From Candidatus Bathyarchaeia archaeon (lineage in GTDB: Archaea > Thermoproteota > Bathyarchaeia > Bathyarchaeales > Bathycorpusculaceae), in contig JAVZLK010000016.1 of the NCBI GenBank assembly GCA_038883795.1, forward strand, positions 1 to 33,423: a stretch of DNA of 33,423 nt. The letters run 5' to 3'. Below, one piece after another: positions 3,072 to 32,425 of this stretch. A program made the translations under genes and the position numbers. The notes beneath the pieces are model-generated. The model did no database searches. It was not told the DNA's origin and saw nothing but the letters and a program-made list of their open reading frames with translations. The stretch's first letter is position 1, and the number at the start of each line of letters is the position of its first letter.

Positions 3072-3092
3072 AATGAGGAGGTGAGGTTTAAA

Positions 3093-4922: not shown

Positions 4923-4931
4923 GTGAAAAGT

Positions 4932-5687: not shown

Positions 5688-5691
5688 TAAA

Positions 5692-13887: not shown

Positions 13888-13952
13888 CATATTCGCTCAT
13901 CTCTGATTAAAATCAACAAATGATTAAATGAGAAGTGCATGAGCGGATCATT

Positions 13953-14510
13953 ATGAATGAAACTATTAGGGTCATAAAAAGCAGAAGAAGTATTAGAAAG
14001 TTTAAACCCACCCCTATACCTGAAGATTTTTTAAAGGAAATCCTAGAGTGCGCTATCCTCGCGCCTAATGCCAGGAATCAACAGAAGTGGCACTTTACGG
14101 TAATTCAGAATAAAGACATTATTGCCAAAATGACTAGTCTGTTGAGAGAAAGTTTGCTGAACTCAGGGATAGACTTTCTTGTGGAAAGGGCAAAAGATCC
14201 AAATTTCGACCCATTTGGTGGTGCACCTACTGTAGTTCTGATAACAGCGGATAAGTCGGCTCGTTTTGTTGAGTTTGATTGCGCTGCTGCTGCCGAAAAT
14301 ATCATGATAGCTGCTGAATCATTAGGTTTGGGTTCACATGTAATGGCAATGACAGAGTTCATATTCATGTCAGAGAAGGGTAGGAACCTTAAAAGAGAAT
14401 TAGGAGTCCCTGAGGGATACGAGCATGTATGCACAATAGCCTTAGGGTATAAAGACGAGATTCCACCACTAAAACCAAGAAGAGAAGATGTAATAAATTT
14501 TGTAAGATAG
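13953..14510 (+). CDS. Nitroreductase-family FMN oxidoreductase
   Basis: IKSRRSIRKF, APNARNQQKWHF, AAENIMIAAESLGLGS and IALGY. ATG 13953 preferred (track start GTG 13935). Confidence 0.92.
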   Translation: MNETIRVIKSRRSIRKFKPTPIPEDFLKEILECAILAPNARNQQKWHFTVIQNKDIIAKMTSLLRESLLNSGIDFLVERAKDPNFDPFGGAPTVVLITADKSARFVEFDCAAAAENIMIAAESLGLGSHVMAMTEFIFMSEKGRNLKRELGVPEGYEHVCTIALGYKDEIPPLKPRREDVINFVR

Positions 14511-16177: not shown

Positions 16178-17362
16178 CTAAGAAGCCCTAATCTTACTTA
16201 ATAATGGCATAACTATTAGCAGCTCAATCAAGACTGGTATTAATAGGACGATTTCATTGAGTTTGAGGTCCCATAAAATGCCCAAAAATAAGGAAAAAAT
16301 TCTGGCCGTTGAAATAATAACACCATCTAATCCATAGAGTCGAGCTATATCATTTACTGGCACACTTTCCCACCACATGGTAAAAAATGGAACCATGGCA
16401 GCTCCTCCAATACCACCTCCAAAAACTCCCATTCCACAAATAGCAGCTAGAAACAAATACTCGTTAGGAGCAAAAATTGAAAGAAGGACCCCAAAACAAT
16501 AAAAAGCATCCATAACGTAAAAAGTTCTTTTCCTGCCATGGGTATCTGCTAACTTACCTATCGGAATTTGACATGCTAATGAAGCAAATGTGGACGTTAT
16601 TACTAAAAACCCCAGTTGAGAGCCTGTAACTCCCCTAAATCTGACAAGCCAAAGAGGCATAAATGTTATTAATGATTGGAAAGCGCTGTCTCGCATTAAT
16701 CTAATGACCATCATAAAGCGAGTTTCTTTATTTTTAAGAGCGTTTATATAACCCCAAATAAAGCACATTTTTGGTATGTTTTCTTTCTTCCCCTTCCCTT
16801 CGTGTAAAGTTATGTTTTTTAGCCACACCAACACTATGATAAATATTAAAATGAGGGACGGCAGTGATATGCAAAAGAGCATGCGTATAGATTGAACATT
16901 TACTTGATATAGCGAAAGGATCGCTGCTGCTATTATAGACGAGACGAGGAGGCATATGTTATTTAGAAAGCGTGATAAACCAAACATTGTTGCTCTTTCC
17001 TTAAAAGTTGTGGAGACTGTAAGTATTGCGTCGGTAAGTGGTATCGTTTTAATTAATTGTAAGAGAATAAAAGGTATAAAGAGAACATACCATGTTTTTG
17101 CAGAGATAAAAAGGGAAACTGCAGTAACGTCTATAATAATAGCATAAAGTAATACTTTTTTTAATGAACTTTTCATAAGGAACTCACCCATGTATAATGC
17201 TATAGCACCTTGAATGACTGCAGCGGTAGATAATAATAATCCTGTGGCAAAACCACCAGCCCCTAAGAGTTGCGCATAGAGAATATTGTATGAAGTTAAA
17301 AGTGAAAAAGAGAACATAAGAATTGATTGACTGATAAGTGCAACTTTGACATTTCGATCCAT
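16178..17362 (-). CDS. MFS transporter
   Basis: About 12 hydrophobic segments, MFS motif A GKLADTHGRK, and ERATMFG. Confidence 0.85.
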   Translation of the reverse strand: MDRNVKVALISQSILMFSFSLLTSYNILYAQLLGAGGFATGLLLSTAAVIQGAIALYMGEFLMKSSLKKVLLYAIIIDVTAVSLFISAKTWYVLFIPFILLQLIKTIPLTDAILTVSTTFKERATMFGLSRFLNNICLLVSSIIAAAILSLYQVNVQSIRMLFCISLPSLILIFIIVLVWLKNITLHEGKGKKENIPKMCFIWGYINALKNKETRFMMVIRLMRDSAFQSLITFMPLWLVRFRGVTGSQLGFLVITSTFASLACQIPIGKLADTHGRKRTFYVMDAFYCFGVLLSIFAPNEYLFLAAICGMGVFGGGIGGAAMVPFFTMWWESVPVNDIARLYGLDGVIISTARIFSLFLGILWDLKLNEIVLLIPVLIELLIVMPLLSKIRAS

Positions 17363-17468: not shown

Positions 17469-18488
17469 TTACCACTCTGGTGCAAGTAACACCTTAATAG
17501 CTTTCTTTTCACGAAGTATTTCAAATCCTTTTATTGCTTCCTTAAGTGGAAGAACACTTGTTATTAATGGCTTCGCGTTTATGGCACGGTTGGCTATTAA
17601 GGATAATGCTCGTTGCCATGTTTGGTACGAGTGTGTAAAACTTGCTTTTATGCTGATTTCGCGGTCTATAAGTGATGTAAAGTTGAAAATGCTAGCGCTT
17701 GAATATACACCAACTAAAATAACTTCACCCCCGCTTTTTACCATTTCGACAGCCTTTGAAATTACTGTATGATCTCCAGATACCTCAAAAACGACATCTA
17801 CGCGCCCACCAACTTGTTTTAACGCCTTTCGAAAGTTTTCATCTTCTGGATGATATGCATTTAATCCTAAGCTTCTTGCAATATCTAGTCTAAATTGTGA
17901 ACGTTGAAGCCCAATTGTTGTGACGCCCGAAGCTTTTAATACCTGCATTAAGAGGATGCCTATTGGACCAACACCAATGACTATGGCTGAGTCGCCAGGT
18001 TTTATTTGGGAGATTTCTATCGCATGAAGAGCTACCCCTAAAGGTTCACAGAGTACCGCCTCTTCAAAGGTAATGCTTTCAGGGACTCTAAATATTCCTC
18101 CAACATTTTCAGGGATTAAAACATACTCTGCAAATCCGCCGTTTAAGTGGAATCCCATATGCTTAGCGTTCTCGCATAATTGTAGCTTACCTGTTTTACA
18201 TGGAACACATTTTCCACAAACAACATAGGGAGTGCAAATTATTCGATCTCCTTCTTGAAAATCTTTAACGTCTTTTCCACATTCAGCGATAACCCCTGTA
18301 AACTCGTGACCCAAAACTATTGGTAATGGAAGGCCCCAGTCACGTGTCCACTCGTATATATGAACATCAGTACCGCAGATACCTGCAGCTTTAACCTTTA
18401 AAAGTATTTGTTTTGGATTTGGTGAGGGGGTCTCTATATCCATCAATTCTACGCCGGGCTCTTTCTTAGTTTTAACTACTGCTTTCAT
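17469..18488 (-). CDS. Zn-dependent medium-chain dehydrogenase/reductase (threonine/sorbitol dehydrogenase-like)
   Basis: GICGTDVH, GHEFTG, structural Zn site CGKCVPC..C, EPLG and GVGPIG. Confidence 0.92.
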   Translation of the reverse strand: MKAVVKTKKEPGVELMDIETPSPNPKQILLKVKAAGICGTDVHIYEWTRDWGLPLPIVLGHEFTGVIAECGKDVKDFQEGDRIICTPYVVCGKCVPCKTGKLQLCENAKHMGFHLNGGFAEYVLIPENVGGIFRVPESITFEEAVLCEPLGVALHAIEISQIKPGDSAIVIGVGPIGILLMQVLKASGVTTIGLQRSQFRLDIARSLGLNAYHPEDENFRKALKQVGGRVDVVFEVSGDHTVISKAVEMVKSGGEVILVGVYSSASIFNFTSLIDREISIKASFTHSYQTWQRALSLIANRAINAKPLITSVLPLKEAIKGFEILREKKAIKVLLAPEW

Positions 18489-18571: not shown

Positions 18572-20536
18572 TTAGATTGAAATAGCTGCGGCGTATGCTG
18601 TTCGCATTGCTTTCTGAATGTTGCCTCGTGGAAGAACACAATCTCCGACTGCACGACACAAAATACCAACTTTGTAATATTCCAAGATAGCCTTTACCCT
18701 CGGTTTTACGCCAGTGGCGACAACCACTGTGCCCGCCTTTATTTCATGTTCAAAGCCATTTTTATCAACATAAACCACACTGCCTTTAGAGATACCCGTT
18801 ACGTGTGCATTTAAAATATATTTGAGGTTTTTTTGATGCAACACGGTGTCAATGAACATGCTGAAATAATGAATACGTGTCATTGTAGAAGCTAATTCAC
18901 TTTGCTTTTCCAGTACAACAACGTTATGTCCTTTCTGTGCCAAATGTAGGCCTGTTTCTGCACCAGCTATTCCTCCGCCAATTATCACGACATCGTCCGC
19001 AATTTTATTCTCTCTTCCATAAACATCGGTAACGTACATCACATTTTCGCTATCTATGCCTGGAATTGATGGAATACTTGGCTCGGCACCAATAGCCACT
19101 ACGGCAGCGTCAAAGCCTTCTTTTTCAATCATTTTTGGGGTTGCCTCGGTCTCCAAGCAGATATTTACCTTAGATTTTTGGATTTTGCGAGTCAGATATT
19201 TTTTAAATTCTTTAATGGGCCATTTGAATTGAACATAATCAGCTAGTTTTAATAACCCGCCTAAAGAATCGCTTTTCTCGAACAATGTAACCTCGTGTCC
19301 TCTTTCGGCAGCTACTAATGCAGCTTCAATACCCGCTGGTCCACCTCCAATTACAGCAACTCTCTTTTTCATTGTGGCTGGTTTAACTAATCTATCAAGT
19401 AAATGCTCCATACCCCAAGTCGGATTGACTGAACAAACACTTACCCAAGGATCAGCTGGGCTGCTTACATGGCATTTATTGCATCTAATACATGGAACTA
19501 TGTCTTCTTCCCGTCCATCGTAAACTTTAGTGCCGAAGTCAGGATTAGCAATCCATGCTCTTCCCATATCAATTAAATCTGCTTTTCCCTCCGCAATAGC
19601 ATTTTCACAGAGATATGGGTCAGTAAAACCTGAAGTTGCGACAACCGCAATCTTAGCACCACTTTTCTTGACCGCTTCCGCCATCCACAAGCATGGTGTT
19701 GGGTCAGATATATATCCGCTGGGATGAGTGAGGTCTACAAAGTTTGTGCGCGGTTGCAGCATATCTATGCAACCCTCCGCTATTTTGGCGAGATTTATAG
19801 TGTCCTCGATGGTCCAACCTCCCGGCTTAGGATCATGGCCAGTTATATGAACTTCGATAAGAAAATCTCTTCCACATTCTCTTTTTACACGATTACAAAG
19901 GTTCAGAAGGAAGCGTGCCCTATTTTCTAAAGTTCCGCCGTATTTGTCAGTCCTTTTATTAGTAAGAGGTGATAAGAATCTGGCTAGGAGATTTAATTTA
20001 TATGATGCATGAAAAAGCACACCGTCAAAACCACATTGCTGAAATATCTTACATACCTTAACTGTTTCATCAATAAGCTCTTCCAATTTATATTCGGGTA
20101 TTTCTCTGCCATTCCCCATTTCTATTCCTGTTCCCAAACCTTCAGGAGGAACCCCAGTACTAACGTCGTATCCTTCCGGTACGCGCACCGTCATATGTGA
20201 CAAAGCAATAGCACCGTAAAAGTGAATAGCTTCAGTCAGCTGACTTATGTAATGTAATGCTTTGCAATCTGAAATATCCCAATCAGACATATGATCATCG
20301 GGCCGCTTGGGTAATGGTTCATTAGGACTAAAGAACATGCTTCCAAGAACTGTAACTCCCGCGGCACCGTGTTTAGCTAAACTAGCGTAAAATCGTATCA
20401 TCTGCTCAGTGGGCCAATGTTCTGGTCCCTGTATGAAATGAGGACGCATTGGTGTTGTAATCATTCTATTTCTTAGAACAACATTTCCTATAACAAAAGG
20501 TGAAAGCAAGTTCGCAAACTTTCTATTCAAGATCAA
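18572..20536 (-). CDS. NADH:flavin oxidoreductase, OYE/enoate reductase class (FMN barrel, 4Fe-4S, FAD domain); Fcr/BaiCD/daidzein-reductase-like architecture
   Basis: LRNRMI, FLSPLTNKRTDKYGGTLENRARF, CIRCNKC-x12-CSVNP, VAVIGGGPAG and IIGGGIAG. Start is TTG 20536 or TTG 20530 after GAGGTG. Confidence 0.9.
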   Translation of the reverse strand: MILNRKFANLLSPFVIGNVVLRNRMITTPMRPHFIQGPEHWPTEQMIRFYASLAKHGAAGVTVLGSMFFSPNEPLPKRPDDHMSDWDISDCKALHYISQLTEAIHFYGAIALSHMTVRVPEGYDVSTGVPPEGLGTGIEMGNGREIPEYKLEELIDETVKVCKIFQQCGFDGVLFHASYKLNLLARFLSPLTNKRTDKYGGTLENRARFLLNLCNRVKRECGRDFLIEVHITGHDPKPGGWTIEDTINLAKIAEGCIDMLQPRTNFVDLTHPSGYISDPTPCLWMAEAVKKSGAKIAVVATSGFTDPYLCENAIAEGKADLIDMGRAWIANPDFGTKVYDGREEDIVPCIRCNKCHVSSPADPWVSVCSVNPTWGMEHLLDRLVKPATMKKRVAVIGGGPAGIEAALVAAERGHEVTLFEKSDSLGGLLKLADYVQFKWPIKEFKKYLTRKIQKSKVNICLETEATPKMIEKEGFDAAVVAIGAEPSIPSIPGIDSENVMYVTDVYGRENKIADDVVIIGGGIAGAETGLHLAQKGHNVVVLEKQSELASTMTRIHYFSMFIDTVLHQKNLKYILNAHVTGISKGSVVYVDKNGFEHEIKAGTVVVATGVKPRVKAILEYYKVGILCRAVGDCVLPRGNIQKAMRTAYAAAISI

Positions 20537-20654: not shown

Positions 20655-21404
20655 TTAAATTGCCCATGAAGGACTTAAATTGCCCAGCCAGTCATCATCT
20701 GGTTGCTCTAAGATAAATGCGCTTACAAAATCTACCCCTGGCTTAAGGAACGGATATTTGTTATATTTTGCTCCCGGAAGCGGAGTATAATCGGGTGGTG
20801 ACTCAATAATTGATTTCCGCCATCCTTCATAATTTTCGTACCATAGTTCGGATACGCGTACCCAAGGAGATGGCTCTATTGAGCCCCAATGTCCAGGTAA
20901 ATTCTCTAATTTAATAGTGCGGTAGCTGAAGAAACGAATGAGATTAAGTTGTTTCATTGTTTCTTTAGCATGAATGTTGAGATACCACTTTTCCCCCTCT
21001 TCCAACGGTACCCCCTCGGGATATTTAAAGAAAATTATCCATCGTAATACTGTTTTTTCTTCAGGATAAAATTTGCCACCACCAAAGAAGTCCTCAGTAG
21101 GTTGCCAAGGCGTGCAGCACCACTCAATTCTTTTAGTTAAGTTAGGAGGCGGAGTGAATAGCAATGTGCCATATGGCTTTGGGAAGTCTAGCCACCAACC
21201 TTCTGTGAGCCTATAGCTGAGGTAACCAATTTGTTCAGCTTCCGGTGGCGGAGGAACCACCTTGTAACTGACAAGACGAGTAAGCCAAGGACCGAAGCGC
21301 CGACAAATCTCCGGGCCGTGAAACCGTTTATACCACCGCTCAAAAGCCGGCAATTCATTAATACTTGGAAGGCCCCATAAGACTAGACTTCTAAATTGTA
21401 CCAA
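20655..21404 (-). CDS. Bacterial-type chalcone isomerase homolog (Eubacterium ramulus CHI-like; duplicated ferredoxin-like/EthD-like alpha+beta fold)
   Basis: RSL..RW.K.FH.PE, PPPP...GY..YRLTE.WW, YPEGV..EEGEKW, ELWYEN..GW and YPFLKP occur in the order I recall for E. ramulus CHI. His29 sits at the position of the catalytic His. Recognised from memory, not from a search. Confidence 0.75.
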   Translation of the reverse strand: MVQFRSLVLWGLPSINELPAFERWYKRFHGPEICRRFGPWLTRLVSYKVVPPPPEAEQIGYLSYRLTEGWWLDFPKPYGTLLFTPPPNLTKRIEWCCTPWQPTEDFFGGGKFYPEEKTVLRWIIFFKYPEGVPLEEGEKWYLNIHAKETMKQLNLIRFFSYRTIKLENLPGHWGSIEPSPWVRVSELWYENYEGWRKSIIESPPDYTPLPGAKYNKYPFLKPGVDFVSAFILEQPDDDWLGNLSPSWAI

Positions 21405-21582: not shown

Positions 21583-21619
21583 TTAGAAACAAAAACAATA
21601 TAGCATAGTGGTGATTAAC

Positions 21620-22960
21620 ATGAATGTTTCAAAGGTGGCCATTACAAAACTACAAGCGATAATTATAGTGGTACTAGTTGTTGTTGCAATTATAGGAGCT
21701 ATTGCATACTTTCTTATACTTCAATCCTCTACTCAGTCGGCTGAAATTACGGAACTAAGACTTGGTACGGTTCTTCCATTAAGTGGGATGCAAGCATTGC
21801 CCGGCACTCGCGGCTTGGTAGGCATGCAGATAGCTGTAGACTGGCTTAACGATAAGGGCGGGATAGACTGGCACGGCCGAAAAATACCGGTGAATTTAAT
21901 ATACTACGATGATGAGGGGAAGGACGAATACACTTCAAAACTTACCGAAAAATTGATTCTTGAAGACAAAGTACATGCAATTTGTGTACATGGTATGAAC
22001 GGCAGAGTTGTTGTTCCAATAGCTGAAAAGCACAAGATTATCACAGCAGGCGGTACTTCAGGTCCTTGGGAAGCCCATCAAGGTTATAAATACTATTTCA
22101 TCGCTTGTGGTCAAGGCGATCCTTTCATTGAGACTCTAACACTTATCCGTGAAAAAGATCCTACTGTTAGAAAAATTGCATGGGTAATAGGTGCTGGAAT
22201 GGATCCAACCGGGATATACAAAGAACAGCTAGAGGATTTCACTAAGCAACATAATTTTGAGTTGGTTTGCTATATAGAGGTTCCAATGGATATTACTGAC
22301 GCAGCACCTGTACTTGCGCAGATGGCAGGTTATGAACCAGACATAATGGCCTTCTACGTAGGGCCGCCTATTGGTTTTTTGGCTTCTGGTCAACTTAGAG
22401 ACGTAAGAGTTTGGGCTAAATACATACTTGTCCTTGGTGGTGCGTGCGATCCAATGTTTGGTCAAAACTTCAATAAATGGGCTGTTGGCATAATATCTCA
22501 AGTGCCATATGATGATAACCTCAAATTTGAAGAAATTGCGGCAAAAGCAGGAAAAGAGTTCGTGGGCCCGACAACTAAAGAGATTAACGAAGCTTGGAAA
22601 GCGAAAAAATCTGCAAATGATCCTGCAAGGACACCAGAAGACGTTGGGCGCCCGGCTATGGTTCCGATAATACTGGCGGAGCTTATCGAAAGGGCCCAAA
22701 GTCTAGATCCAGATAAAATTGCAGAAGTTGCCAAAAACGTTGACTTTTACACAGCGTGTGGAAGGTACAAGCTTGATCCAAATAACTTCTATATCAATGT
22801 TGGACAACCCACATGGCCTGCAGTAGTACAGTGGCAGAAAAAAGACAATGCTCTAAAATTAGAACTAATAGCTCCAAAGGAATGCGCTACGTCCGAGATA
22901 ACCTCCATGCCTACATGGGAAGAAAAAGAAACATGGCCAGAGCTAACATTTTCTCCTTAA
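21620..22960 (+). CDS. ABC transporter substrate-binding protein, LivK/PBP1 type; paralog of 1725-3053
   Basis: KVAITK plus hydrophobic helix; LRLGTVLPLSG, LNDKGG and YYDDEG; shares AQSLDPD, QWQKKDN and MPTWEEK..WPELT with the first SBP. ATG 21620 follows GGTGA (track start GTG 21608). Confidence 0.88.
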   Translation: MNVSKVAITKLQAIIIVVLVVVAIIGAIAYFLILQSSTQSAEITELRLGTVLPLSGMQALPGTRGLVGMQIAVDWLNDKGGIDWHGRKIPVNLIYYDDEGKDEYTSKLTEKLILEDKVHAICVHGMNGRVVVPIAEKHKIITAGGTSGPWEAHQGYKYYFIACGQGDPFIETLTLIREKDPTVRKIAWVIGAGMDPTGIYKEQLEDFTKQHNFELVCYIEVPMDITDAAPVLAQMAGYEPDIMAFYVGPPIGFLASGQLRDVRVWAKYILVLGGACDPMFGQNFNKWAVGIISQVPYDDNLKFEEIAAKAGKEFVGPTTKEINEAWKAKKSANDPARTPEDVGRPAMVPIILAELIERAQSLDPDKIAEVAKNVDFYTACGRYKLDPNNFYINVGQPTWPAVVQWQKKDNALKLELIAPKECATSEITSMPTWEEKETWPELTFSP

Positions 22961-22999
22961 ATTATTTATTTTTATTATATTTTTTTATTTTTAATTATT
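22961..22999 (+). terminator. T-rich tract after binding-protein gene (possible leaky terminator)
   Basis: ATTATTTATTTTTATTATATTTTTTTATTTTTAATTATT directly after the stop codon. Confidence 0.45.
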
Positions 23000-23024
23000 G
23001 AGGGGGTGAAGATACCTGTACGAA

Positions 23025-23894
23025 TTGCTTCTGCAGCAATTAATTTTTGGAATCATGATAGCTGCCCTTTATGGTTTAGCCAGCATGGGCTTCAGTCTGG
23101 TGGCAGGTATTATGCGTATTATAAATTTTGCGCATCCCGATCTATTGTCACTGGGGGCATACACTGCCTATTGGCTTTGGGTATTTATAGGATTCGATCC
23201 AATTAGGGGCCTTCCAGTTTCTATTGTATTGGGCTTAATTGCAGGATTACTTTTATTTAATTTAATTAAAAAAAGCATTTCACCTGATGTCCTTTTGCTT
23301 ATAACCTTTAGTGTTGGAATAATTCTTGAAGAAGGTATGAGGCTTGTTTGGAGCCCGAATTATCGTGGCATTTCGTGGTCCTTGGGAGTCATTGCATTTT
23401 CCGCGATAAGTGTTCCGGTTACTTACCTTGTTGGGTTTATAGTGAACATAACTATTATTGGGTGTTTATATCTCATACTTTATAAAACCTATTTTGGAAG
23501 AGCCCTTAGAGCGGTCTCAATAGATCCAGAAGCGGCTGCCCTTTGCGGCGTGGATGTTACTTCTATACGGCGTAACGGTTTTGCGTTAAGTAGTATTTTG
23601 GCTTTTGTTGGCGGCTCCCTTCTACTTATATATTTGCCAGTCGGTATAAATCCATATTATGGTCAAACTTTCTTGGCAAAAAGTATCATTATAGTTACTT
23701 TAGGCGGTATTGCAAATCCATGGGGGGCTCTAATAGGCGGCGTGGTTGTAGGAGTTTTTGATCAAATGGTGCCTCTACTCTTACGAGGAATACCTTTTGT
23801 TAAAGAACCTTTCAGTTTTGCTCCATTTCTATACTTTGTTATATTTTTATGCATTTTAGCTATAAGACCTCAAGGAATATTAGGGAGACGTTAA
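23025..23894 (+). CDS. livH: ABC transporter permease, LivH type
   Basis: YGLASMGFSLV.GIMRIINFAH, TYFGRALRAVSIDPEAAALCGV and LGGIANPWGALIGG; TTG start. Confidence 0.9.
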   Translation: MLLQQLIFGIMIAALYGLASMGFSLVAGIMRIINFAHPDLLSLGAYTAYWLWVFIGFDPIRGLPVSIVLGLIAGLLLFNLIKKSISPDVLLLITFSVGIILEEGMRLVWSPNYRGISWSLGVIAFSAISVPVTYLVGFIVNITIIGCLYLILYKTYFGRALRAVSIDPEAAALCGVDVTSIRRNGFALSSILAFVGGSLLLIYLPVGINPYYGQTFLAKSIIIVTLGGIANPWGALIGGVVVGVFDQMVPLLLRGIPFVKEPFSFAPFLYFVIFLCILAIRPQGILGRR

Positions 23895-23898
23895 AGAT

Positions 23899-24837
23899 AT
23901 GACTATGAAAATAAACCCGTCGTTTTGTGCGTCACTATGTGCTTATGCTATATTATTCATTTACTCTTTGACCTCTGGAGTTGCCAAAGAATTAACTTAC
24001 AGTATCCTGTTGACATTAATAAATGCGCAAGCTTTCAATTTAGCTTTAGGTTATTCTGGGTTAATAAATTTAGGTCAAGCAGGCTTTCTGGGTATAGGGT
24101 CATATGCTTTCTACGCGGTTATAAGCCTTCTACCTATAAATCCTTATATAGCAGTAGTGTTAAGCAGTTTTATCACGTTAGCCATAGCCGTTTCAATAGG
24201 ATATTTCTTGGCAAGATTTCGTGGTTTTCTCTTCGTTTTCGGTACAATGATACTTGCTGCTGGTGTACCCTACCTTATAATGGGACTGGATATACTGGGG
24301 GGCGCCGAGGGAATATTAACATATAAAGATTTGGGCCCATTTTACGATTTTGACATCATACTGGCCATTCTGTTCCTAACATCTCTCTTGACAACGATTC
24401 TAACTTTTATAATTGTAAAGTCAAGATTAGGCTATTCATTGAAGGCAATACGAGATGATGAAGACGCGGCGGCTACTAGTGGTGTTAATGTACTTAGATC
24501 TAAACTGATAGTCTTTGCTATAAGTGCATTTGCTTTAGGAGTTGCGGGCGGTCTTAGGCTTTTTAAAGTAAATTACCTATCTCCCTCAACCGCCTTTTCT
24601 ATGGCCTTTACTATTGAAGCGTTAGTTGTAATACTAACGGGTGGACCTGGATCGTTAATTGGGCCTTTTATTGGCACACTTTTATATCAGATCCTTAAGG
24701 ACATATTGATGAGGACTGTTCCTGGTTTACAATTACTTGTATTTGGAGTGATAGTTGTTATAATGGGATTATCTACTCCAGAAGGCATCGCAGGGTTATT
24801 AAAAAGAATTAAAAGCTTGCGAGACGTAGAAGTTTAG
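23899..24837 (+). CDS. livM: ABC transporter permease, LivM type
   Basis: FNLALGYSGLINLGQAGFLGIGSY, SRLGYSLKAIRDDEDAA..SGVN and GGPGSLIGPFIG. Confidence 0.9.
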   Translation: MTMKINPSFCASLCAYAILFIYSLTSGVAKELTYSILLTLINAQAFNLALGYSGLINLGQAGFLGIGSYAFYAVISLLPINPYIAVVLSSFITLAIAVSIGYFLARFRGFLFVFGTMILAAGVPYLIMGLDILGGAEGILTYKDLGPFYDFDIILAILFLTSLLTTILTFIIVKSRLGYSLKAIRDDEDAAATSGVNVLRSKLIVFAISAFALGVAGGLRLFKVNYLSPSTAFSMAFTIEALVVILTGGPGSLIGPFIGTLLYQILKDILMRTVPGLQLLVFGVIVVIMGLSTPEGIAGLLKRIKSLRDVEV

Positions 24838-24846
24838 GTGAATACG

Positions 24847-25608
24847 ATGACCATCTTACTTGAAATTAAGGACGTAATTAAAAGATTTGGTGGCATAGTA
24901 GCTTTAAATAATGTTTCGTTGTGCGTAAATGAAAAAGAAATAGTAGGTTTGATTGGACCTAATGGTTCAGGAAAAACAACACTAATTAATGTAATTAGCG
25001 GGCTGTATAAGCCTGACTCTGGCAAGATAATCTTTAAAGGCGTGGATATTAGCAAAATCCCTGCTTATTTAAGATGTCGCATGGGAATTTCAAGAACCTA
25101 TCAAATAACCCGTCTATTTGGTAGACTGACCGCGCTTGAAAATGTTGTAGTAAGTGTACTTAACAGCGAACGCCATGGTAAAATTTCAGTAGCACAGGCC
25201 AAACATGTAGCCAATGATATACTTATGACTTTAGGGTTGGAAAAAATAAAAAACACATACGCAAAATTGTTAACTGCGCCGCAAAGAAGATTGCTAGAAA
25301 TCGCTAGGGCAGTGGGTGGAAACCCTGAACTCCTATTACTTGATGAATGTGTTACCGGACTAACCCCTTCAGAAACTCTTGAGGTTCTTGATGCTATCAA
25401 AAAAATTAGTCGGGAAAGAGAAATTTCTATAATCATGGTTGAGCATGTAATGCATGCGGTAATGAGCGTATCCGATAGAGTGATTGTCCTTCATGAGGGA
25501 AAAAAGATAGCTGAAGGCTCACCAAAGGAAATAGCAGAAAGTGAAAAAGTTGCTGAAGTATATTTTGGGGATCGCGAAATAGCATTAGGCTTTTTGAGGG
25601 AGATGTAA
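24847..25608 (+). CDS. livG: ABC transporter ATP-binding protein, LivG type
   Basis: KRFGGIVAL, GPNGSGKTT, GISRTYQ, LLLLDE and VEH. ATG 24847 follows AGGTGA (track start GTG 24838). Confidence 0.92.
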   Translation: MTILLEIKDVIKRFGGIVALNNVSLCVNEKEIVGLIGPNGSGKTTLINVISGLYKPDSGKIIFKGVDISKIPAYLRCRMGISRTYQITRLFGRLTALENVVVSVLNSERHGKISVAQAKHVANDILMTLGLEKIKNTYAKLLTAPQRRLLEIARAVGGNPELLLLDECVTGLTPSETLEVLDAIKKISREREISIIMVEHVMHAVMSVSDRVIVLHEGKKIAEGSPKEIAESEKVAEVYFGDREIALGFLREM

Positions 25609-25612
25609 GACC

Positions 25613-26335
25613 TTGCCAGAAGAAATTTTACTGGAGGCTAAAGAAATAGAAGGAGGATACGGAGATTTTAAAGTCCTCCACGGCCTTAGCTTTTGCGTTA
25701 AAAAAGGGAGTATAACATGTATTCTTGGTCCAAATGGTTCTGGGAAATCAACTATATTAAAAACAATAATCGGTGCGTTAACACCATGGAGTGGAACAAT
25801 TTTATGTGAAGGTGTTAACATAACTAATCTACCAGTCCACAAAAGAGTGAAAATGGGTATAGCATTAGTCCCGGAAGGAAGAAGAATTTTTGGTGACATG
25901 ACAGTAATTGAAAATTTAGAGATGGGTGCTTACTTAAAAGAAGCGCGAGTAAAATTTAATGAGATGTTGGAACGCGTTTTTTCTCTGTTTCCAGTCCTGA
26001 AAGAAAGAAAAGAGCAAAGGGCGTCATGCCTAAGTGGTGGTGAACAACAAATGTTGGCCATCGCGAGGGGTTTGTTAACTAACCCTAAATTGCTCATGAT
26101 CGATGAACCAAGCTTAGGATTATCCCCTAAATTAGCGCAAAACCTTATGAAAATGCTCGGTAAGCTTCGAGATGAAGAGGGACTAACAATTCTTCTAGTT
26201 GAGCAAAATATTTCTTTAACAAGGGAGATAATGGACTATGGCTATGTTTTAAGCGGTGGATTCATGATTGCAGAGGGGCAATTTAAAGATTTAGTTGGTA
26301 ATCACGAAGTCAAAAGAGCATATTTAGGACTGTAA
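25613..26335 (+). CDS. livF: ABC transporter ATP-binding protein, LivF type
   Basis: GPNGSGKST, VPEGRRIF, LSGGEQQMLAIARGL, DEPSLGL and LLVEQN. Confidence 0.93.
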   Translation: MPEEILLEAKEIEGGYGDFKVLHGLSFCVKKGSITCILGPNGSGKSTILKTIIGALTPWSGTILCEGVNITNLPVHKRVKMGIALVPEGRRIFGDMTVIENLEMGAYLKEARVKFNEMLERVFSLFPVLKERKEQRASCLSGGEQQMLAIARGLLTNPKLLMIDEPSLGLSPKLAQNLMKMLGKLRDEEGLTILLVEQNISLTREIMDYGYVLSGGFMIAEGQFKDLVGNHEVKRAYLGL

Positions 26336-26461: not shown

Positions 26462-27607
26462 ATGAGGGGTGTTGTTGTTTATTACTCCGCGAGTGGTAAT
26501 ACCCGTATTATTGCTAAAGCCATCCACCGTGGCATGAGCAAGATTATTGAGGCCGACATCTTCTCTGTTAAGGATGTTAGTCCGCGGATAATGGCAACAT
26601 ATGATTTGATAGGTATCGGCTCACCAGTATGGTTCTTCCGTGAGACTGCTAATATTAAGCGCTTTATCTATAATATGCCCAGAATGGACGGAAAATATTG
26701 TTTTATGTTCTGTACGCATGCAGAAGCCCCGTTCTGGATATTTACCTCGATGGCATCAACTCTTCAAAAGAAAGGCTTAACCGTTATCGATTGGGCAGAC
26801 TGGTATGGTGCGTCAAATATAGTTGCTCATATGCCTTGCCCAAGCCCGACTCATGGGCATCCTGACGAGGTAGATACCCGAGAAGCAGAAGATTTTGGTC
26901 GAAAAGCTGCTGAAAGGTTCCTGCAAATTGTTTCTGGTAGAACAGATTTAATACCAAAAATACCCAAAGGTAGAGAGGCACCCATGCAGTTCAAACCGCA
27001 TCCAATAGGGGAACCATTTCCTGGCACTCGATTGATAAGAAAGATAGACGTTAATAAATGTAGATATCCTTGGTGTAAATTATGTTTTGATATTTGCCCT
27101 GTTAAAGCTATAGATCCGTCAAAGAACCCTCCCATTTTTAGGGCAGACGCGTGTTGGAACTGTTCGTTGTGTAATAGACTGTGCCCGGTTGACGCGATAA
27201 AACTAGAACCGGAAGAAGTTGCGAGACGTTTAAGGCCTCAGTACGCTATAGATCTTTCTAAATGCACTTTTCCAGAATGCAAGTTGTGTGTTGAAAATTG
27301 TCCAATGGACTCAATAGACTTTACAACTAGGCCGCCAACATTCAAATATAACTGTGAGGGATGCGACTTATGCTGGGCTATATGTCCAAGTGGAGCGGTG
27401 GAAATAAAAAATTTGGCGGAGACTCATGGATTAATGGTTGAGAGAATGGAAAAGAGAGAAGGGGAACATGAATTCTTAAAGTTATTGGCCGAGGCCGAAG
27501 CTAAAGGGCGGTTCAGGCGATTAATACCAATTGAGAAAATAGACTGGACTAAACCGTTGTATAAGATCCAGAAGATTCCGCGTTTTATGCCTCCAGAGGA
27601 CCCTTAG
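26462..27607 (+). CDS. Flavodoxin domain fused to four [4Fe-4S] motifs (flavodoxin-polyferredoxin, EFR1-like)
   Basis: YYSASGNT FMN loop and YDLIGIGSPVW, then CRYPWCKLCFDICP, CWNCSLCNRLCP, CTFPECKLCVENCP and CEGCDLCWAICP. Confidence 0.87.
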   Translation: MRGVVVYYSASGNTRIIAKAIHRGMSKIIEADIFSVKDVSPRIMATYDLIGIGSPVWFFRETANIKRFIYNMPRMDGKYCFMFCTHAEAPFWIFTSMASTLQKKGLTVIDWADWYGASNIVAHMPCPSPTHGHPDEVDTREAEDFGRKAAERFLQIVSGRTDLIPKIPKGREAPMQFKPHPIGEPFPGTRLIRKIDVNKCRYPWCKLCFDICPVKAIDPSKNPPIFRADACWNCSLCNRLCPVDAIKLEPEEVARRLRPQYAIDLSKCTFPECKLCVENCPMDSIDFTTRPPTFKYNCEGCDLCWAICPSGAVEIKNLAETHGLMVERMEKREGEHEFLKLLAEAEAKGRFRRLIPIEKIDWTKPLYKIQKIPRFMPPEDP

Positions 27608-28579: not shown

Positions 28580-28701
28580 TTATCTGTGGCATTAATACTA
28601 TAAGCCTGGTTGCTCCACTTATACTCCGGTTAATTCTCTACAATGCACTCCTAGGTAAGTTTTAAATAAATTAATTATTGCAAAAAGAAACGGTGGTAGA
28701 A

Positions 28702-31801: not shown

Positions 31802-32425
31802 ATGAAGGTGTGGATTGACGAGAACAGTTGTGTTCACATCGATTGGGAGCTTGATGGAGTTACCTCGAGGATGTTGAATTGGTGGTGGTGTAACATGGAG
31901 AAGGGTTTTGTTCTTTGGCATCCTAAGGAGCACAAAGGGTTATACTGGATCAAAAAACCTAAACATAATAATGCGATCGGCGCCATCCATATGGCGCCGC
32001 AGATTTGGTCTGACGGTACTCTTATTAAGCCATGCATAAGGTGGGAGGATGTGGAAAATCTTCCGGAGAAGATGCAGTCGTTGATAGTGTTTGACCATGC
32101 TGTTATCGCAGCCGCTATAAGTATTACAGGAGAAAATATTGTGGAGGATGCTCCACCCCTTGGCTATAGGATCCATCAATGGGAAGCAACTGATTTTGGT
32201 GTTAGGGGCAGATCTACTGCCATCCCTACAGAGACGGAACCAAAAGAAAGATTATTAAATATATGGGCTCCACACTGCAAGGAAGAAATCAGTAACTTTC
32301 AGGAATTCCTTCCACAACTTTATAAGTTATGGAGCGTCGTTAAGGATCCCGAAATAAGTCCATACTTTTCCTTTGAGGTAATGAGAGAAGGAGGCAAATT
32401 AAAATACAGACATAAGCAAAAATAG
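31802..32425 (+). CDS. DAPG hydrolase (PhlG) / phloretin hydrolase (Phy) family C-C hydrolase, compact form
   Basis: GVTSRMLNWWW (family GVTxxMxxWW), LWHPKEH (WHPxxH) and C-terminal HCKEE (HxxxE metal ligands). Confidence 0.78.
   Translation: MKVWIDENSCVHIDWELDGVTSRMLNWWWCNMEKGFVLWHPKEHKGLYWIKKPKHNNAIGAIHMAPQIWSDGTLIKPCIRWEDVENLPEKMQSLIVFDHAVIAAAISITGENIVEDAPPLGYRIHQWEATDFGVRGRSTAIPTETEPKERLLNIWAPHCKEEISNFQEFLPQLYKLWSVVKDPEISPYFSFEVMREGGKLKYRHKQK

What the first reader, a model, noticed from the sequence alone, without database searches (positions are those of the whole stretch)
20655..21404. Archaeal homolog of bacterial chalcone isomerase, with a His motif in both halves
Seen in sequence: an internal repeat FERWYKRFHGPE / GEKWYLNIHAKE, with matching YRLTEGWW / VRVSELWY strands, indicates two EthD-like half-domains, each with WYxxxH. 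From recall of E. ramulus CHI: the N-terminal His is the catalytic base, the second half lacks this His, and there is a long lid insertion that seems absent here. The other substrate-binding His positions also look substituted. Inference: a lid-less, possibly two-site relative whose substrate may differ from naringenin chalcone. This fold is unrelated to plant CHI, and I know of no characterised archaeal member.
Basis: partly seen in the sequence, partly recalled or inferred. Interest (0 to 1): 0.8.

Follow-up and report, generated by a model that had tools for sequence, protein, structure and literature searches.

The report
Lid-less chalcone-isomerase relative in a Bathyarchaeon
This gene encodes a shortened relative of the bacterial flavonoid-opening enzyme chalcone isomerase, probably acquired from bacteria by a Bathyarchaeia archaeon, and it sits among reductase and hydrolase genes that suggest plant-polyphenol breakdown, though its substrate is unknown.

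Summary
ORF 20655-21404 (-) encodes a 249-aa protein made of two homologous ferredoxin-like halves, each carrying W-[YF]-x3-H-x2-E. It is a clear homologue of Eubacterium ramulus chalcone isomerase (CHIera): Pfam Chalcone_N is above its cut-off, phmmer gives E 9e-14, and the AlphaFold model aligns with Z 26.8 and rmsd 2.2 A over 235 residues. His29 aligns with the catalytic His33. The lid region is about 38 residues shorter, and most CHIera pocket residues are replaced or deleted.

The protein belongs to a small, otherwise bacterial subfamily that matches the 'branch B' of Meinert et al. 2021, which they reported inactive on chalcones (data not shown). In this subfamily the second-half His145 is present in 50 of 50 aligned members and absent from five CHIera-type proteins. 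The subfamily's commonest genomic neighbour is a PhlG/phloretin-hydrolase-type protein. In five loci it lies beside a true CHIera-type gene.

In the window the gene sits 118 bp upstream of an Fe-S flavin ene-reductase. That reductase's closest relatives are from Bathyarchaeia. No CHI-like gene was found in 440 related archaeal genomes, so horizontal acquisition is likely.

Best reading (about 50%): a His-based isomerase or ring-opening enzyme acting on a flavonoid- or acylphloroglucinol-type substrate other than naringenin chalcone. The two-site idea remains untested.

The parts
20655..21404 (-). CHI-like gene (249 aa, TTG start, stop included): a lid-less 'branch B' member of the bacterial chalcone isomerase fold
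   Evidence: ORF. Pfam PF18232, 34.2 bits against cut-off 25; 3zph_A, E 9.3e-14; model pLDDT 89.9. Foldseek TM 0.83/0.80. Z 26.8, rmsd 2.2 A, 235 residues aligned.
21096..21404 (-). N-terminal ferredoxin-like half (residues 1-103). It corresponds to the catalytic domain of CHIera but lacks the lid and helices a3-a5.
   Evidence: strands 4-11, 41-49, 65-71, 92-99; helix 15-40. (ungapped block 4-72 against 8-76). (30-45 alignment columns that are filled in branch A are missing here).
21318..21320 (-). Codon of His29, aligned with the catalytic His33 of CHIera
   Evidence: ungapped alignment, offset +4. (gtg on the + strand = CAC). His in 48 of 50 family members, Lys in 2.
20658..21071 (-). C-terminal ferredoxin-like half (residues 112-249). 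It corresponds to the 'solvent-exposed' domain of CHIera and is the more conserved half in this subfamily.
   Evidence: most invariant columns lie here: R121 W122 Y128 P129 W140 H145 S160 E186 W188 Y189 W195 F230 P235.. (this half alone aligns to single-domain DABB proteins at Z 8-9).
20970..20972 (-). Codon of His145, the pseudo-symmetry mate of His29. It is invariant in the subfamily and absent from CHIera-type proteins.
   Evidence: His in 50 of 50. (F/L/M/Y in five branch-A proteins). (Val in CHIera). (atg on the + strand = CAT).
18572..20536 (-). Fe-S flavoenzyme ene-reductase (OYE FMN domain plus FAD/NAD(P) domain), 118 bp downstream on the same strand. It belongs to the broad OYE Fe-S flavoenzyme class that by recall includes the flavanone-cleaving reductase Fcr.
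   Evidence: PF00724 + PF07992. (6qkg 2-naphthoyl-CoA reductase 6.8e-76; 1ps9 dienoyl-CoA reductase). (all NCBIfam matches below their cut-offs). (closest homologue 83% identical, labelled Bathyarchaeia).
17469..18488 (-). Zn-dependent medium-chain dehydrogenase, same strand
   Evidence: Homologues lie near the CHI-like gene in 9 of 80 related loci.
16178..17362 (-). MFS transporter, same strand
13935..14510 (+). Nitroreductase-family gene of Bathyarchaeia type. It serves as a marker of the contig's host.
   Evidence: (70-72% nucleotide identity in 4 of 4 same-genus genomes). (named homologues at 65-88% identity are all Bathyarchaeia-type; bacterial ones reach at most 59%).
21608..26335 (+). 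Divergently transcribed LivK-type ABC uptake system: binding protein, two permeases, two ATPases
26462..27607 (+). EFR1-family flavodoxin/4Fe-4S ferredoxin
   Evidence: (NF038196, 115 bits against cut-off 75).
28678..30669 (+). Second OYE-type Fe-S flavoenzyme reductase, 36% identical to the first
31802..32425 (+). Divergent PhlG/DAPG-hydrolase-like protein (207 aa), a candidate C-C hydrolase
   Evidence: PF18089, 27.4 bits against cut-off 22.7, C-terminal 37 residues only. (24% identity, E 5e-8 to the canonical copy on contig C8). (homologues in 13 of 80 related loci, 7 of them within 500 bp of the CHI-like gene).
33030..33105 (-). tRNA-Gly(CCC) at the right edge of the accessory region. It is also the site of a break in read depth.

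Best explanation
The gene encodes a cofactor-independent, two-domain (ferredoxin-like x2) enzyme of the bacterial chalcone isomerase fold. It belongs to the lid-less 'branch B' subfamily.

Shown:
- It is homologous to CHIera over its full length.
- The general-base His is retained (His29 = His33).
- The lid and helices a3-a5 are lost, along with most naringenin-contacting residues.
- A second His-x-x-Glu motif (His145/Glu148) sits at the pseudo-symmetric position of the C-terminal half and is invariant across the subfamily.
- The subfamily is genomically linked to PhlG/phloretin-hydrolase-type proteins, and in a minority of loci to Fe-S ene-reductases, Zn-dehydrogenases and true CHIs.

Inferred:
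- The protein catalyses a His-mediated proton abstraction, such as a retro-Michael ring opening, isomerisation or tautomerisation. Its substrate would be a flavonoid- or acylphloroglucinol-type compound other than the simple chalcones CHIera accepts.
- Its product is passed to the adjacent ene-reductase (18572-20536) and then to a PhlG-like C-C hydrolase (31802-32425, or the canonical copy on contig C8), yielding a phloroglucinol-type ring and an aryl acid.
- A Bathyarchaeia archaeon acquired the gene horizontally from bacteria, and it landed beside a resident Bathyarchaeia-type reductase gene within an accessory catabolic region.
For: Homology and fold:
- Pfam Chalcone_N scores 34.2 bits against a cut-off of 25.
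- phmmer against CHIera gives E 9.3e-14 in two blocks covering residues 4-72 and 104-238.
- The model has pLDDT 89.9 and pTM 0.88.
- Foldseek gives E 1e-18, TM 0.83/0.80. VIA-align gives Z 26.8, rmsd 2.2 A, 235 aligned; the next unrelated fold scores Z 12.0.
- His29 lies on His33 in an ungapped block.

Subfamily:
- The word-based search found 120 hits, all about 250 aa.
- Only 338 clusters at 50% identity match the profile among 1.84 billion representatives.
- Rooted on five CHIera-type proteins, the tree splits the two types with support 100. The window protein lies inside the 89-row lid-less group (94 rows, none dropped).
- In the 50 of 120 hits that I aligned, His145 is present in 50/50 and His29 in 48/50. 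The five CHIera-type proteins have F/L/M/Y at the His145 column.

Context in 80 related bacterial loci:
- A DAPG-hydrolase cluster is the commonest neighbour, in 20/80 loci within 6 kb. Cluster membership is by BLAST; one representative was confirmed by Pfam at E 2e-74.
- Homologues of the window's own PhlG-like protein occur in 13/80 loci, 7 of them within 500 bp. The union of the two sets is 27/80.
- The same reductase type occurs in 5/80 loci, 3 of them within 200 bp.
- Locus L063 (Desulfobacteraceae) has nitroreductase, PhlG-like, CHI-like, OYE and Zn-ADH genes in a row.
- In 5/80 loci a true lid-bearing CHI lies within 5 kb.

Same genome: contig C8 carries a canonical DAPG hydrolase, two cyclase-family genes, 3-hydroxyacyl-CoA dehydrogenase, CoA-transferases and a BKACE gene. 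These are the enzyme families of the phloroglucinol pathway described in PMC10470551 (passages).

Literature:
- A delta-lid CHIera keeps one fifth of its activity (PMC9694015 passages).
- Branch B is described with a3-a5 replaced by loops and an extra a6-b6 loop (PMC8361940, text parts 1-2). Both features are seen here.

Host:
- The MAG has S28e and an archaeal SSU fragment.
- The neighbouring reductase is 83% identical to a Bathyarchaeia MAG protein. It is 56-58% identical to three copies in a same-family genome, while Chloroflexi-labelled hits reach at most 52%.
- The nitroreductase is 65-88% identical to Bathyarchaeia-labelled proteins and at most 59% to bacterial ones.

HGT:
- The gene was found in 0 of 40 relatives, 0 of 400 same-phylum genomes from 162 genera, and not in G748.
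- All 80 listed genome hits carry bacterial or unassigned titles, none archaeal.
Against: - No activity was measured here. The only published statement on the lid-less branch is that it showed no CHI activity (PMC8361940, 'data not shown'). That is compatible with a different substrate, but equally with no enzymatic role.
- I could not confirm from accessions that this subfamily is the paper's branch B, because supplements are closed.
- The window's reductase matches its enzyme class only in general. All NCBIfam matches are far below their cut-offs, and its best solved relative is a naphthoyl-CoA reductase. Orthology to Fcr was not tested.
- The reductase is adjacent in only 5 of 80 related loci, so the CHI-reductase pairing is not a subfamily-wide rule.
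- The window's PhlG-like gene lies 10 kb away. It matches the Pfam model only over its last 37 residues and has no PDB sequence match.
- Tyr48 of CHIera, which stabilises the carbonyl, is Leu44 here. Within the subfamily this position reads Y22/H13/F9/L5/S1.
- The stronger conservation of the C-terminal half suggests the functional centre may not be the His29 site at all.
- The host assignment has weak points:
  - The contig is the most atypical in tetranucleotide use of 15 contigs of 25-45 kb: 0.0127 against 0.005-0.0106. It is still closer than bacterial loci of similar GC, at 0.0185-0.0246.
  - In the one run that holds the region, it has depth about 1-5. The sequence beyond the tRNA-Gly has depth 19-26, and many different contigs end in that tRNA.
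  - The MAG is 2.18 Mb against 1.2-1.7 Mb for its congeners and has duplicated tRNAs.
Confidence: 0.5

Rival explanations
1. It is an ordinary chalcone/flavanone isomerase (EC 5.5.1.6) doing the same reaction as CHIera, just without the lid.
For: - The catalytic His is retained, and Thr71 and Trp75 have equivalents in Thr67 and Trp71.
- A delta-lid CHIera is still active (PMC9694015 passages).
- An ene-reductase of the same broad OYE Fe-S flavoenzyme class as Fcr (a recalled assignment) lies directly downstream.
Against: - Branch B proteins were reported inactive on chalcones (PMC8361940, data not shown).
- Tyr48 becomes Leu, Gln69 becomes Arg and His73 becomes Gly. The segment holding Asp79, Lys87, Glu91, Gln101, Asn122, Arg125 and Phe135 is 38 residues shorter.
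- In 5 of 80 loci a true CHI sits next to a branch-B gene, which argues for non-redundant roles.
Confidence: 0.12
2. The functional centre has moved to the C-terminal half. His145/Glu148, together with the invariant W140, E186, W188, Y189 and W195, would form the real and only active or ligand-binding site. The chemistry would be unlike CHI, for example a DABB-type cyclase, retro-aldol or isomerase reaction, or cofactor binding as in the chlorite-dismutase/DyP relatives. His29 would be a relic.
For: - 13 of the 15 invariant columns lie at or beyond residue 106, and His145 is present in 50/50 against 48/50 for His29.
- His145 is specific to the lid-less branch.
- The C-terminal half alone aligns to single-domain DABB enzymes: EthD-family 2ftr at Z 9.0, methylmuconolactone isomerase at Z 8.3 and olivetolic acid cyclase at Z 8.1.
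Against: - Z values of about 8 are near that tool's background (note).
- Several of the conserved C-terminal residues (W140, E186, W188, W195) are also conserved in CHIera-type proteins, where this domain is not catalytic. They may therefore be structural.
- No residue-level superposition or pocket analysis could be done, and no cofactor motif was tested.
Confidence: 0.2
3. The gene is not archaeal. The contig is a mis-binned or chimeric piece of a bacterial genome, for example Chloroflexota, and 'archaeal CHI' is an artefact.
For: - The CHI-like gene is absent from 440 related archaeal genomes.
- The nearest named relatives are Dehalococcoidaceae and Chloroflexi at about 50% identity.
- The contig is compositionally the most atypical of its size class.
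- There is a depth break and an assembly hub at the tRNA-Gly.
- The MAG is oversized and has duplicated tRNAs.
Against: - The gene 118 bp downstream is 83% identical to a Bathyarchaeia MAG protein. It is 56-58% identical to three genes of a same-family genome with 2% contamination, and Chloroflexi-labelled hits reach at most 52%.
- The nitroreductase 6 kb away is 65-88% identical to Bathyarchaeia-labelled proteins against at most 59% for bacterial ones, and it shares 70-72% nucleotide identity with 4 of 4 same-genus genomes.
- The ACD beta subunit is 56% identical to same-genus and same-order copies against at most 42% in the bacterial loci.
- GC is 0.403 against 0.406 for the genome.
- The tetranucleotide distance is below that of every bacterial locus tested.
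- These archaeal-type genes lie on both sides of the CHI-like gene, inside the low-depth part of the contig.
Confidence: 0.12
4. It has no enzymatic role and is instead a stable scaffold or stress protein of the SP1/DABB kind, or a decaying acquired gene.
For: - The fold is shared with the boiling-stable protein SP1.
- The only published test of the branch found no activity.
- The protein sits on a long terminal branch of 0.47 in the tree.
Against: - The frame is intact and all 15 subfamily-invariant residues are kept.
- The model is confident.
- The subfamily is consistently placed in catabolic gene clusters.
Confidence: 0.06

Closest known systems
Bacterial chalcone isomerase of Eubacterium ramulus (CHIera; PDB 3ZPH/4C9S/4D06; Pfam PF18232)
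   Same: - The two-domain ferredoxin-like fold is shared over the whole length: Z 26.8, rmsd 2.2 A, 235 residues, 24-26% identity.
- The catalytic His is at the same helix position.
- The C-terminal E-x-W-[YF]-E...W and G-[ED]-x-W motifs are conserved.
- An Fe-S flavin ene-reductase is the neighbouring gene, as reported for the CHI/ERED pair (PMC8361940).
   Different: - The lid (106-130) and helices a3-a5 are missing, making the protein 38 residues shorter in that stretch.
- Tyr48, Gln69 and His73 are replaced.
- There is an extra loop between a6 and b6.
- A second His-x-x-Glu motif occurs in the C-terminal half, where CHIera has Val.
- The host is an archaeon rather than a gut Firmicute.
- Activity is unknown.
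'Branch B' CHI-like proteins of Meinert et al. 2021 (PMC8361940)
   Same: The structural description matches: a3-a5 turned into loops and extra residues between a6 and b6. There is also a deep split from the active CHIs. Holophaga is among the hosts both in the paper and in my loci.
   Different: Identity with the paper's branch could not be checked by accession, because its tree and residue table are in supplements that are closed. In the text I read, the paper does not mention the invariant second His, the PhlG linkage or any archaeal member.
CHI-Fcr-Phy flavanone/flavanonol degradation route of gut and soil anaerobes
   Same: All three protein families are encoded in the window or the genome: a CHI-fold protein, an OYE-type Fe-S reductase and a DAPG-hydrolase-family protein. 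Contig C8 adds phloroglucinol-pathway families (pathway from PMC10470551 and PMC8084988 passages).
   Different: Each component is a divergent relative rather than an orthologue shown to be equivalent. The genes are spread over 14 kb and a second contig. No phloroglucinol reductase was looked for.
Single-domain DABB/EthD enzymes (EthD-family 2FTR, methylmuconolactone isomerase, olivetolic acid cyclase)
   Same: Each half has the b-a-b-b-a-b fold, and the C-terminal half aligns at Z 8-9.
   Different: There is no Pfam EthD match at E<=10. These proteins are homodimers of one domain, whereas here the two domains are fused and have diverged. Z of about 8 is near background.

Membership tests
Bacterial chalcone isomerase superfamily (Pfam Chalcone_N, CHIera fold) | Significant match to the Chalcone_N profile | tested here: met
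   34.2 bits against gathering cut-off 25, E 3.7e-8, residues 5-72
Bacterial chalcone isomerase superfamily (Pfam Chalcone_N, CHIera fold) | Two consecutive ferredoxin-like domains superposable on CHIera | tested here: met
   Foldseek TM 0.83/0.80. VIA-align Z 26.8, rmsd 2.2 A, 235 of 249 residues.
Active chalcone isomerases ('branch A', EC 5.5.1.6) | Catalytic general base His33 | tested here: met
   His29 aligns with His33 in an ungapped 69-residue block. This rests on a sequence alignment and a whole-chain fit; no residue-level 3D superposition was available.
Active chalcone isomerases ('branch A', EC 5.5.1.6) | Mobile lid (residues 106-130) and helices a3-a5 of the catalytic domain | tested here: not met
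   31 residues here against 69 in CHIera between the aligned blocks. The alignment with five lid-bearing proteins shows the gap.
Active chalcone isomerases ('branch A', EC 5.5.1.6) | Conserved substrate contacts Tyr48, Gln69, Thr71, Gln101 (list from PMC8361940) | tested here: not met
   Tyr48 becomes Leu44 and Gln69 becomes Arg65. Thr71 is kept as Thr67. Gln101 lies in the shortened segment.
Active chalcone isomerases ('branch A', EC 5.5.1.6) | Chalcone-flavanone isomerase activity | not testable with these tools
   Needs an enzyme assay. The literature reports none for the lid-less branch.
'Branch B' CHI-like proteins (Meinert et al. 2021) | a3-a5 replaced by loops, extra a6-b6 loop, and a deep split from active CHIs | tested here: met
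   Alignment A2. The tree split has support 100, with the window protein inside the lid-less group. Accession-level identity with the paper's branch was not checked because supplements are closed.
EthD family (Pfam PF07110) | Match to the EthD profile | tested here: not met
   Not among the matches at E<=10. There is only fold-level similarity of the C-terminal half, Z 9.0 to 2ftr.
Chlorite dismutase / DyP / coproheme decarboxylase (heme-binding two-domain relatives) | Proximal heme-binding His in the C-terminal domain | not tested
   Whole-chain fits reach only Z 8.0-8.5 and TM about 0.4. Whether His145 matches the heme ligand could not be examined.
CHI-Fcr-Phy flavonoid degradation gene set | Fcr-type ene-reductase adjacent to the CHI gene | tested here: inconclusive
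   The domain architecture matches that recalled for Fcr, and the gene is adjacent. No named family is reached and no Fcr sequence was available for comparison.
CHI-Fcr-Phy flavonoid degradation gene set | Phloretin/DAPG hydrolase family member | tested here: met
   The window copy scores 27.4 bits against cut-off 22.7, but over its C-terminal part only. The canonical copy on contig C8 scores E 1.5e-45.

The most novel reading that the evidence does not exclude
The lid-less, double-His CHI-like proteins are a distinct enzyme class that carries out a still unassigned step of anaerobic flavonoid breakdown. One candidate is opening or cleaving the auronol alphitonin that true CHIs make from flavanonols, a step the literature assigns to 'an unknown enzyme' (PMC12203004 passage). 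The reaction would use the invariant His145/Glu148 pocket of the C-terminal domain, alone or together with His29, and would work with the co-located divergent PhlG-like hydrolases. By acquiring this gene a hot-spring Bathyarchaeon would have gained flavonoid-type polyphenol catabolism, an ability not so far described for archaea in the papers I could search.
Probability: 0.15. Interest if true: 0.8.

Novelty: new variant of a known kind. Interest (0 to 1): 0.55.

Why it matters
Bacterial chalcone isomerase is a small and evolutionarily isolated family: only 338 clusters at 50% identity match the profile among 1.84 billion representative proteins. Only its lid-bearing branch has a known function.

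This work adds three things about the lid-less branch:
- It has its own invariant His-x-x-Glu motif in the domain regarded as non-catalytic.
- It travels with PhlG-type C-C hydrolases, and sometimes with true CHIs.
- It has reached a Bathyarchaeia genome that also carries phloroglucinol-pathway gene families.

That gives concrete, testable candidates for missing steps of anoxic polyphenol degradation. It also gives a lead on how Bathyarchaeia, long suspected of using plant-derived aromatics, may do so. If the protein turns out to be inactive, or the contig proves not to be archaeal, the finding reduces to a divergent family member of unknown role.

Tried and rejected
- NCBIfam gave no match for the CHI-like protein at E<=10.
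- The window's PhlG-like protein has no PDB sequence match at E<=1 and no NCBIfam match.
- No RNA holder was listed for the region, so expression could not be examined.
- In one search some bins had no cover in runs X2 and X3, and one bin (19427-20093) had none in X1. I draw nothing from these gaps.
- Same-genus synteny: 20-kb stretches around the nitroreductase homologues of G001 and G003 share no other window gene. The contig therefore cannot be anchored by gene order.
- The window's right end (tRNA-Gly plus the start of a 2-oxoacid:ferredoxin oxidoreductase, 72-76% nucleotide identity to same-genus genomes) first looked like proof of an archaeal core flank. One search shows a depth break and many alternative joins inside the tRNA, so I no longer rely on that junction.
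- The baseline for core genes is 86-89% nucleotide identity. The nitroreductase and OFOR matches at 70-76% are therefore paralogues or come from a more distant population.
- The same-family genome G748, which holds three homologues of the reductase, has no CHI-like match.
- Literature: 'Bathyarchae' with 'chalcone' found 1 paper and with 'phloroglucinol' 2 papers (listings only, not read, apparently incidental). 'chalcone isomerase' + 'archaea' + 'flavonoid degradation' found 3 papers. 'PF18232'/'Chalcone_N' found 4 (listings only). None of the listings reports an archaeal CHI homologue.
- The idea that His145 corresponds to the heme ligand of chlorite dismutases could not be tested, because no residue-level structural alignment or model coordinates were available.
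- The supplements of PMC8361940 (full tree, residue table, accessions of branch B) are closed. They may already list close relatives of this protein.
I could not see whether the 48.6-kb Bathyarchaeia contig holding the 83%-identical reductase also carries a CHI-like gene.
Full report
**The observation**

The minus-strand ORF 20655..21404 starts with TTG and encodes 249 residues.

The two halves are homologous beyond chance. BLASTP of residues 1-100 against 111-249 gives 23.5 bits, E 3e-4, and pairs exactly these motifs. An hhalign comparison of the two halves of a 50-sequence family alignment gives probability 97.2% and E 4.3e-11 over 70 columns, with the His29 column on the His145 column.

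**Homology to bacterial chalcone isomerase**

- Pfam Chalcone_N matches residues 5-72 at 34.2 bits against a gathering cut-off of 25. NCBIfam has nothing.
- phmmer against PDB sequences finds only the E. ramulus enzyme and its variants above noise. For 3zph_A the E-value is 9.3e-14, in two blocks: query 4-72 on chain 8-76, and query 104-238 on chain 146-270.
- An AlphaFold2 model built on 50 relatives is confident, with pLDDT 89.9 and pTM 0.88. It has the expected b-a-b-b-a-b topology twice.
- Foldseek ranks CHIera chains first, at E about 1e-18 and TM 0.83/0.80.
- VIA-align gives Z 26.8, rmsd 2.2 A and 235 aligned residues. The next fold, an anthrone-oxidase-like protein, scores Z 12.0.

**How it differs from CHIera**

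The first phmmer block is ungapped, so CHIera numbering is query numbering plus 4. I took the pocket list from Meinert et al. 2021 (PMC8361940, text read) and mapped it:

| CHIera residue | Residue here |
|---|---|
| His33 | His29 |
| Thr71 | Thr67 |
| Trp75 | Trp71 |
| Phe41 | Phe37 |
| Tyr48 | Leu44 |
| Gln69 | Arg65 |
| His73 | Gly69 |
| Ser37 | Ile33 |
| Gln40 | Arg36 |

Asp79, Lys87, Glu91, Gln101, Asn122, Arg125 and Phe135 all fall in the stretch between the two blocks. That stretch is 31 residues here and 69 in CHIera. The lid is residues 106-130 (PMC9694015 passages). At the position of His145, CHIera has Val.

**The subfamily**

- The word-indexed search found 120 relatives of about 250 aa. 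The closest is 59% identical, and the few named ones are from Chloroflexi and Dehalococcoidales MAGs.
- A profile search of 1.84 billion representatives found only 338 clusters at E<=1e-3, 222 at 1e-10 and 78 at 1e-30. The whole superfamily is small.
- In the species-representative genomes, 120 stretches encode a relative. All 80 loci kept carry bacterial or unassigned titles, none archaeal: Dehalococcoidia, Chloroflexia, Thermoleophilia/Gaiellales, Acidobacteriota including Holophaga foetida, Desulfobacteraceae, Proteobacteria and Clostridia.
- I aligned 50 of the 120 hits. The invariant columns are R23, F106, R121, W122, Y128, P129, W140, H145, S160, E186, W188, Y189, W195, F230 and P235. 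His29 is His in 48 and Lys in 2, while His145 is His in all 50. The half that is 'solvent-exposed' and non-catalytic in CHIera is thus the better conserved half here.
- Thirteen of the 80 loci hold a second CHI-like gene. In five of them (L011, L017, L056, L073, L084) it is a 274-283-aa protein with the lid segment and strong similarity to CHIera. In these five proteins the His145 column reads F, L, M or Y.
- A maximum-likelihood tree of 94 rows was built from the window protein, 80 locus proteins, 8 metagenome proteins and these five as outgroup, with none dropped. It separates the two types with SH-aLRT 100. The window protein lies inside the lid-less group, within an 85-row clade (support 96). 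It is loosely placed (86, not starred) near a Dehalococcoidaceae protein and sits on a long terminal branch of 0.47.

This subfamily fits the 'branch B' of Meinert et al. They described it as having a3-a5 replaced by loops and extra residues between a6 and b6. They said it showed no CHI activity in screening, data not shown. Both structural features are visible in alignment A2. I could not match accessions, because the paper's tree and tables are in closed supplements.

**Genomic context**

In the window, the genes downstream of the CHI-like gene on the same strand are:
- an OYE-FMN plus FAD/NAD(P) Fe-S flavoenzyme (18572-20536), which follows after 118 bp;
- a Zn-dehydrogenase (17469-18488);
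- an MFS transporter (16178-17362).

A LivK-type ABC importer runs divergently (21608-26335). Beyond it come an EFR1 ferredoxin, two F420-type luciferase-like oxidoreductases, a second OYE Fe-S reductase (28678-30669) and a divergent DAPG-hydrolase-like protein (31802-32425). Further upstream of 16178 lie a KstD-like flavoprotein, a nitroreductase, a glyoxalase-fold protein and a fumarate-reductase-like flavoprotein.

The reductase's best solved relatives are 2-naphthoyl-CoA reductase and 2,4-dienoyl-CoA reductase. No NCBIfam model reaches its cut-off.

Across the 80 bacterial loci I clustered all ORFs within 6 kb of the CHI-like gene and ran one representative per cluster through Pfam.

| Neighbour type | Loci (of 80) |
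|---|---|
| DAPG-hydrolase cluster (representative E 2e-74) | 20 |
| Short-chain dehydrogenases | 14 |
| LysR regulators | 14 |
| Glyoxalase-fold proteins | 13 |
| MerR-TetR regulators | 11 |
| Zn-dehydrogenases | 10 |
| Double-EthD proteins | 9 |
| Aldehyde:ferredoxin oxidoreductases | 8 |

Homologues of the window's own PhlG-like protein occur in 13 loci, 7 of them within 500 bp. The union with the DAPG cluster is 27 of 80. The reductase type occurs in 5 loci, 3 of them within 200 bp. L063 (Desulfobacteraceae) carries nitroreductase, PhlG-like, CHI-like, OYE and Zn-ADH genes consecutively. PF18089 matched none of 14 control genomes, so the linkage is far from random.

In the same MAG, contig C8 carries a canonical DAPG hydrolase (E 1.5e-45), two cyclase-family genes, 3-hydroxyacyl-CoA dehydrogenase, two CoA-transferase subunits and a BKACE gene. 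These are the families used by the anaerobic phloroglucinol pathway (PMC10470551 passages).

**The host**

The MAG is 2.18 Mb in 81 contigs, 87% complete with 3.4% contamination. It has ribosomal protein S28e and an archaeal SSU fragment.

The CHI-like gene was not found in 40 relatives, among them 4 of the same genus and 20 others of the same family (24 same-family genomes in all). It was not found in 400 genomes of the same phylum covering 162 genera, nor in G748. PF18089 was likewise found in 0 of 40 relatives.

Evidence that the contig is nevertheless archaeal:
- The adjacent reductase is 83% identical to a protein labelled Bathyarchaeia. It is 55-56% identical to two further Bathyarchaeia proteins and at most 52% to Chloroflexi-labelled ones. 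A same-family genome (G748, 91% complete, 2% contamination) has three copies at 56-58%.
- The nitroreductase at 13935-14510 has named homologues at 65-88% identity that are all Bathyarchaeia/Bathyarchaeota/Nitrososphaerota. Bacterial ones reach at most 59%. It also shares 70-72% nucleotide identity with 4 of 4 same-genus genomes.
- The ACD beta subunit is 56% identical to same-genus and same-order copies, against at most 42% in the bacterial loci.
- GC content matches the genome.

Evidence against:
- The contig's tetranucleotide distance from the genome mean is 0.0127. That is the largest of 15 contigs of 25-45 kb (0.005-0.0106). It is still below bacterial loci of similar GC (0.0185-0.0246); same-genus loci score about 0.007.
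- In the only run that holds the region (X1, labelled hot springs metagenome, share 0.39), the island is covered by short contigs of depth about 1-5. The sequence from inside the tRNA-Gly onward belongs to contigs of depth 19-26. Many different contigs end at that tRNA.
- Core genes are 86-89% identical to congeners, more than the 70-76% seen for window genes.
- The MAG is larger than its congeners and has several duplicated tRNAs.

My reading is that the region belongs to a low-abundance Bathyarchaeia population, or to a strain-variable island, that was binned with a more abundant relative. I put the probability of an archaeal host at about 0.85-0.9. Within that region the CHI-like gene itself is of bacterial descent.

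**Mechanism**

Shown:
- a CHI fold with the general-base His retained;
- loss of the lid and of most naringenin contacts;
- a duplicated His-x-x-Glu motif whose second copy is invariant and branch-specific;
- persistent linkage to PhlG-type C-C hydrolases, and occasional linkage to Fe-S ene-reductases and true CHIs.

Inferred: the protein performs a His-mediated proton abstraction that leads to ring opening or isomerisation of a flavonoid- or acylphloroglucinol-like compound. Its product is then reduced by the neighbouring reductase and cleaved by a PhlG-like hydrolase.

Co-occurrence with true CHIs argues for a different, non-redundant step. One open slot in the literature is the cleavage of the auronol alphitonin 'by an unknown enzyme' (PMC12203004 passage). 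That is speculation.

The C-terminal half may be the real, or a second, active site. This is suggested by its conservation and by fold similarity of that half to single-domain DABB enzymes at Z 8-9, which is close to that tool's background. I could not inspect the model's pockets.

**Novelty and verdict**

The fold and the existence of a lid-less branch are in print (PMC8361940). The following did not appear in the papers I could search or read:
- the invariant second His;
- the linkage to PhlG-type hydrolases and true CHIs;
- the presence in a Bathyarchaeia genome together with phloroglucinol-pathway families.

I rate this a new variant of a known kind. It is of moderate interest, with the function unresolved and the host assignment probable rather than certain.

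Noticed in passing
G000 contig C8, about 10300-34100 and 47044-47919 (loci L096-L098): A second catabolic region in the same MAG. It carries a canonical DAPG/phloretin-hydrolase-family gene, two cyclase-family genes, an HpaB-like hydroxylase, a glycyl-radical (PFL-like) fragment, an F420-type oxidoreductase, 3-hydroxyacyl-CoA dehydrogenase, a LivK-type binding protein, ACD, two CoA-transferase subunits, Fe-ADH, Cas1 and a BKACE gene. This set resembles the anaerobic phloroglucinol pathway. PF18089 was found in none of 40 relatives.
   Followed up: partly
window 33030-33105 and flanks: tRNA-Gly(CCC) marks a sharp change of read depth, about 1-5 to its left and 19-26 to its right, in runs X1 and X2. 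Many contigs with different flanks end inside it. The MAG also has a second, 85%-similar tRNA-Gly(CCC) on C2. This could be a strain-variable island boundary or a chimeric join.
   Followed up: partly
whole MAG (G000): Several tRNA species are duplicated (Glu-TTC x4, Ser-GCT x4, Cys x3, Ile x3, Arg-TCG x3). The MAG is 2.18 Mb against 1.2-1.7 Mb in four same-genus genomes. More than one related population may be binned together.
   Followed up: no
loci L011, L017, L056, L073, L084: A true lid-bearing CHIera-type gene and a lid-less CHI-like gene lie within 5 kb of each other in five bacterial loci from Paracoccaceae, Desulfobacteraceae, Clostridia and Family XIII. A further eight loci hold two lid-less paralogues.
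   Followed up: partly
loci L058, L061, L062, L067, L069, L071, L072, L074, L076: A 268-aa protein with an N-terminal EthD domain, possibly another fused double-DABB protein, lies near the CHI-like gene in nine mostly Actinomycetota loci. Tungsten-type aldehyde:ferredoxin oxidoreductases are neighbours in eight loci.
   Followed up: no
window 1725-6396 and 21608-26335: The window holds two complete LivK-type ABC importers whose binding proteins are 43% identical. The genome holds at least five more such binding proteins, while the four same-genus genomes have none detectable with this query.
   Followed up: no
window 3-1565: An ADP-forming acyl-CoA synthetase is split into alpha (C-terminal part at the contig edge) and beta subunits. 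The beta subunit is 56% identical to a separate small-subunit copy in relatives, which also carry fused forms of about 900 aa at 35-42%.
   Followed up: no
loci L047 and L052: Two of the related loci come from MAG series names (CTSoil_007 Holophagaceae, CTSoil_082 Bacillota) that appear in a study of polyphenol-fed anoxic soil, where 'CHI', FCR and PHY proteins were detected (PMC8084988 passages). Whether the detected 'CHI' was the lid-less type is not stated in what I read.
   Followed up: no
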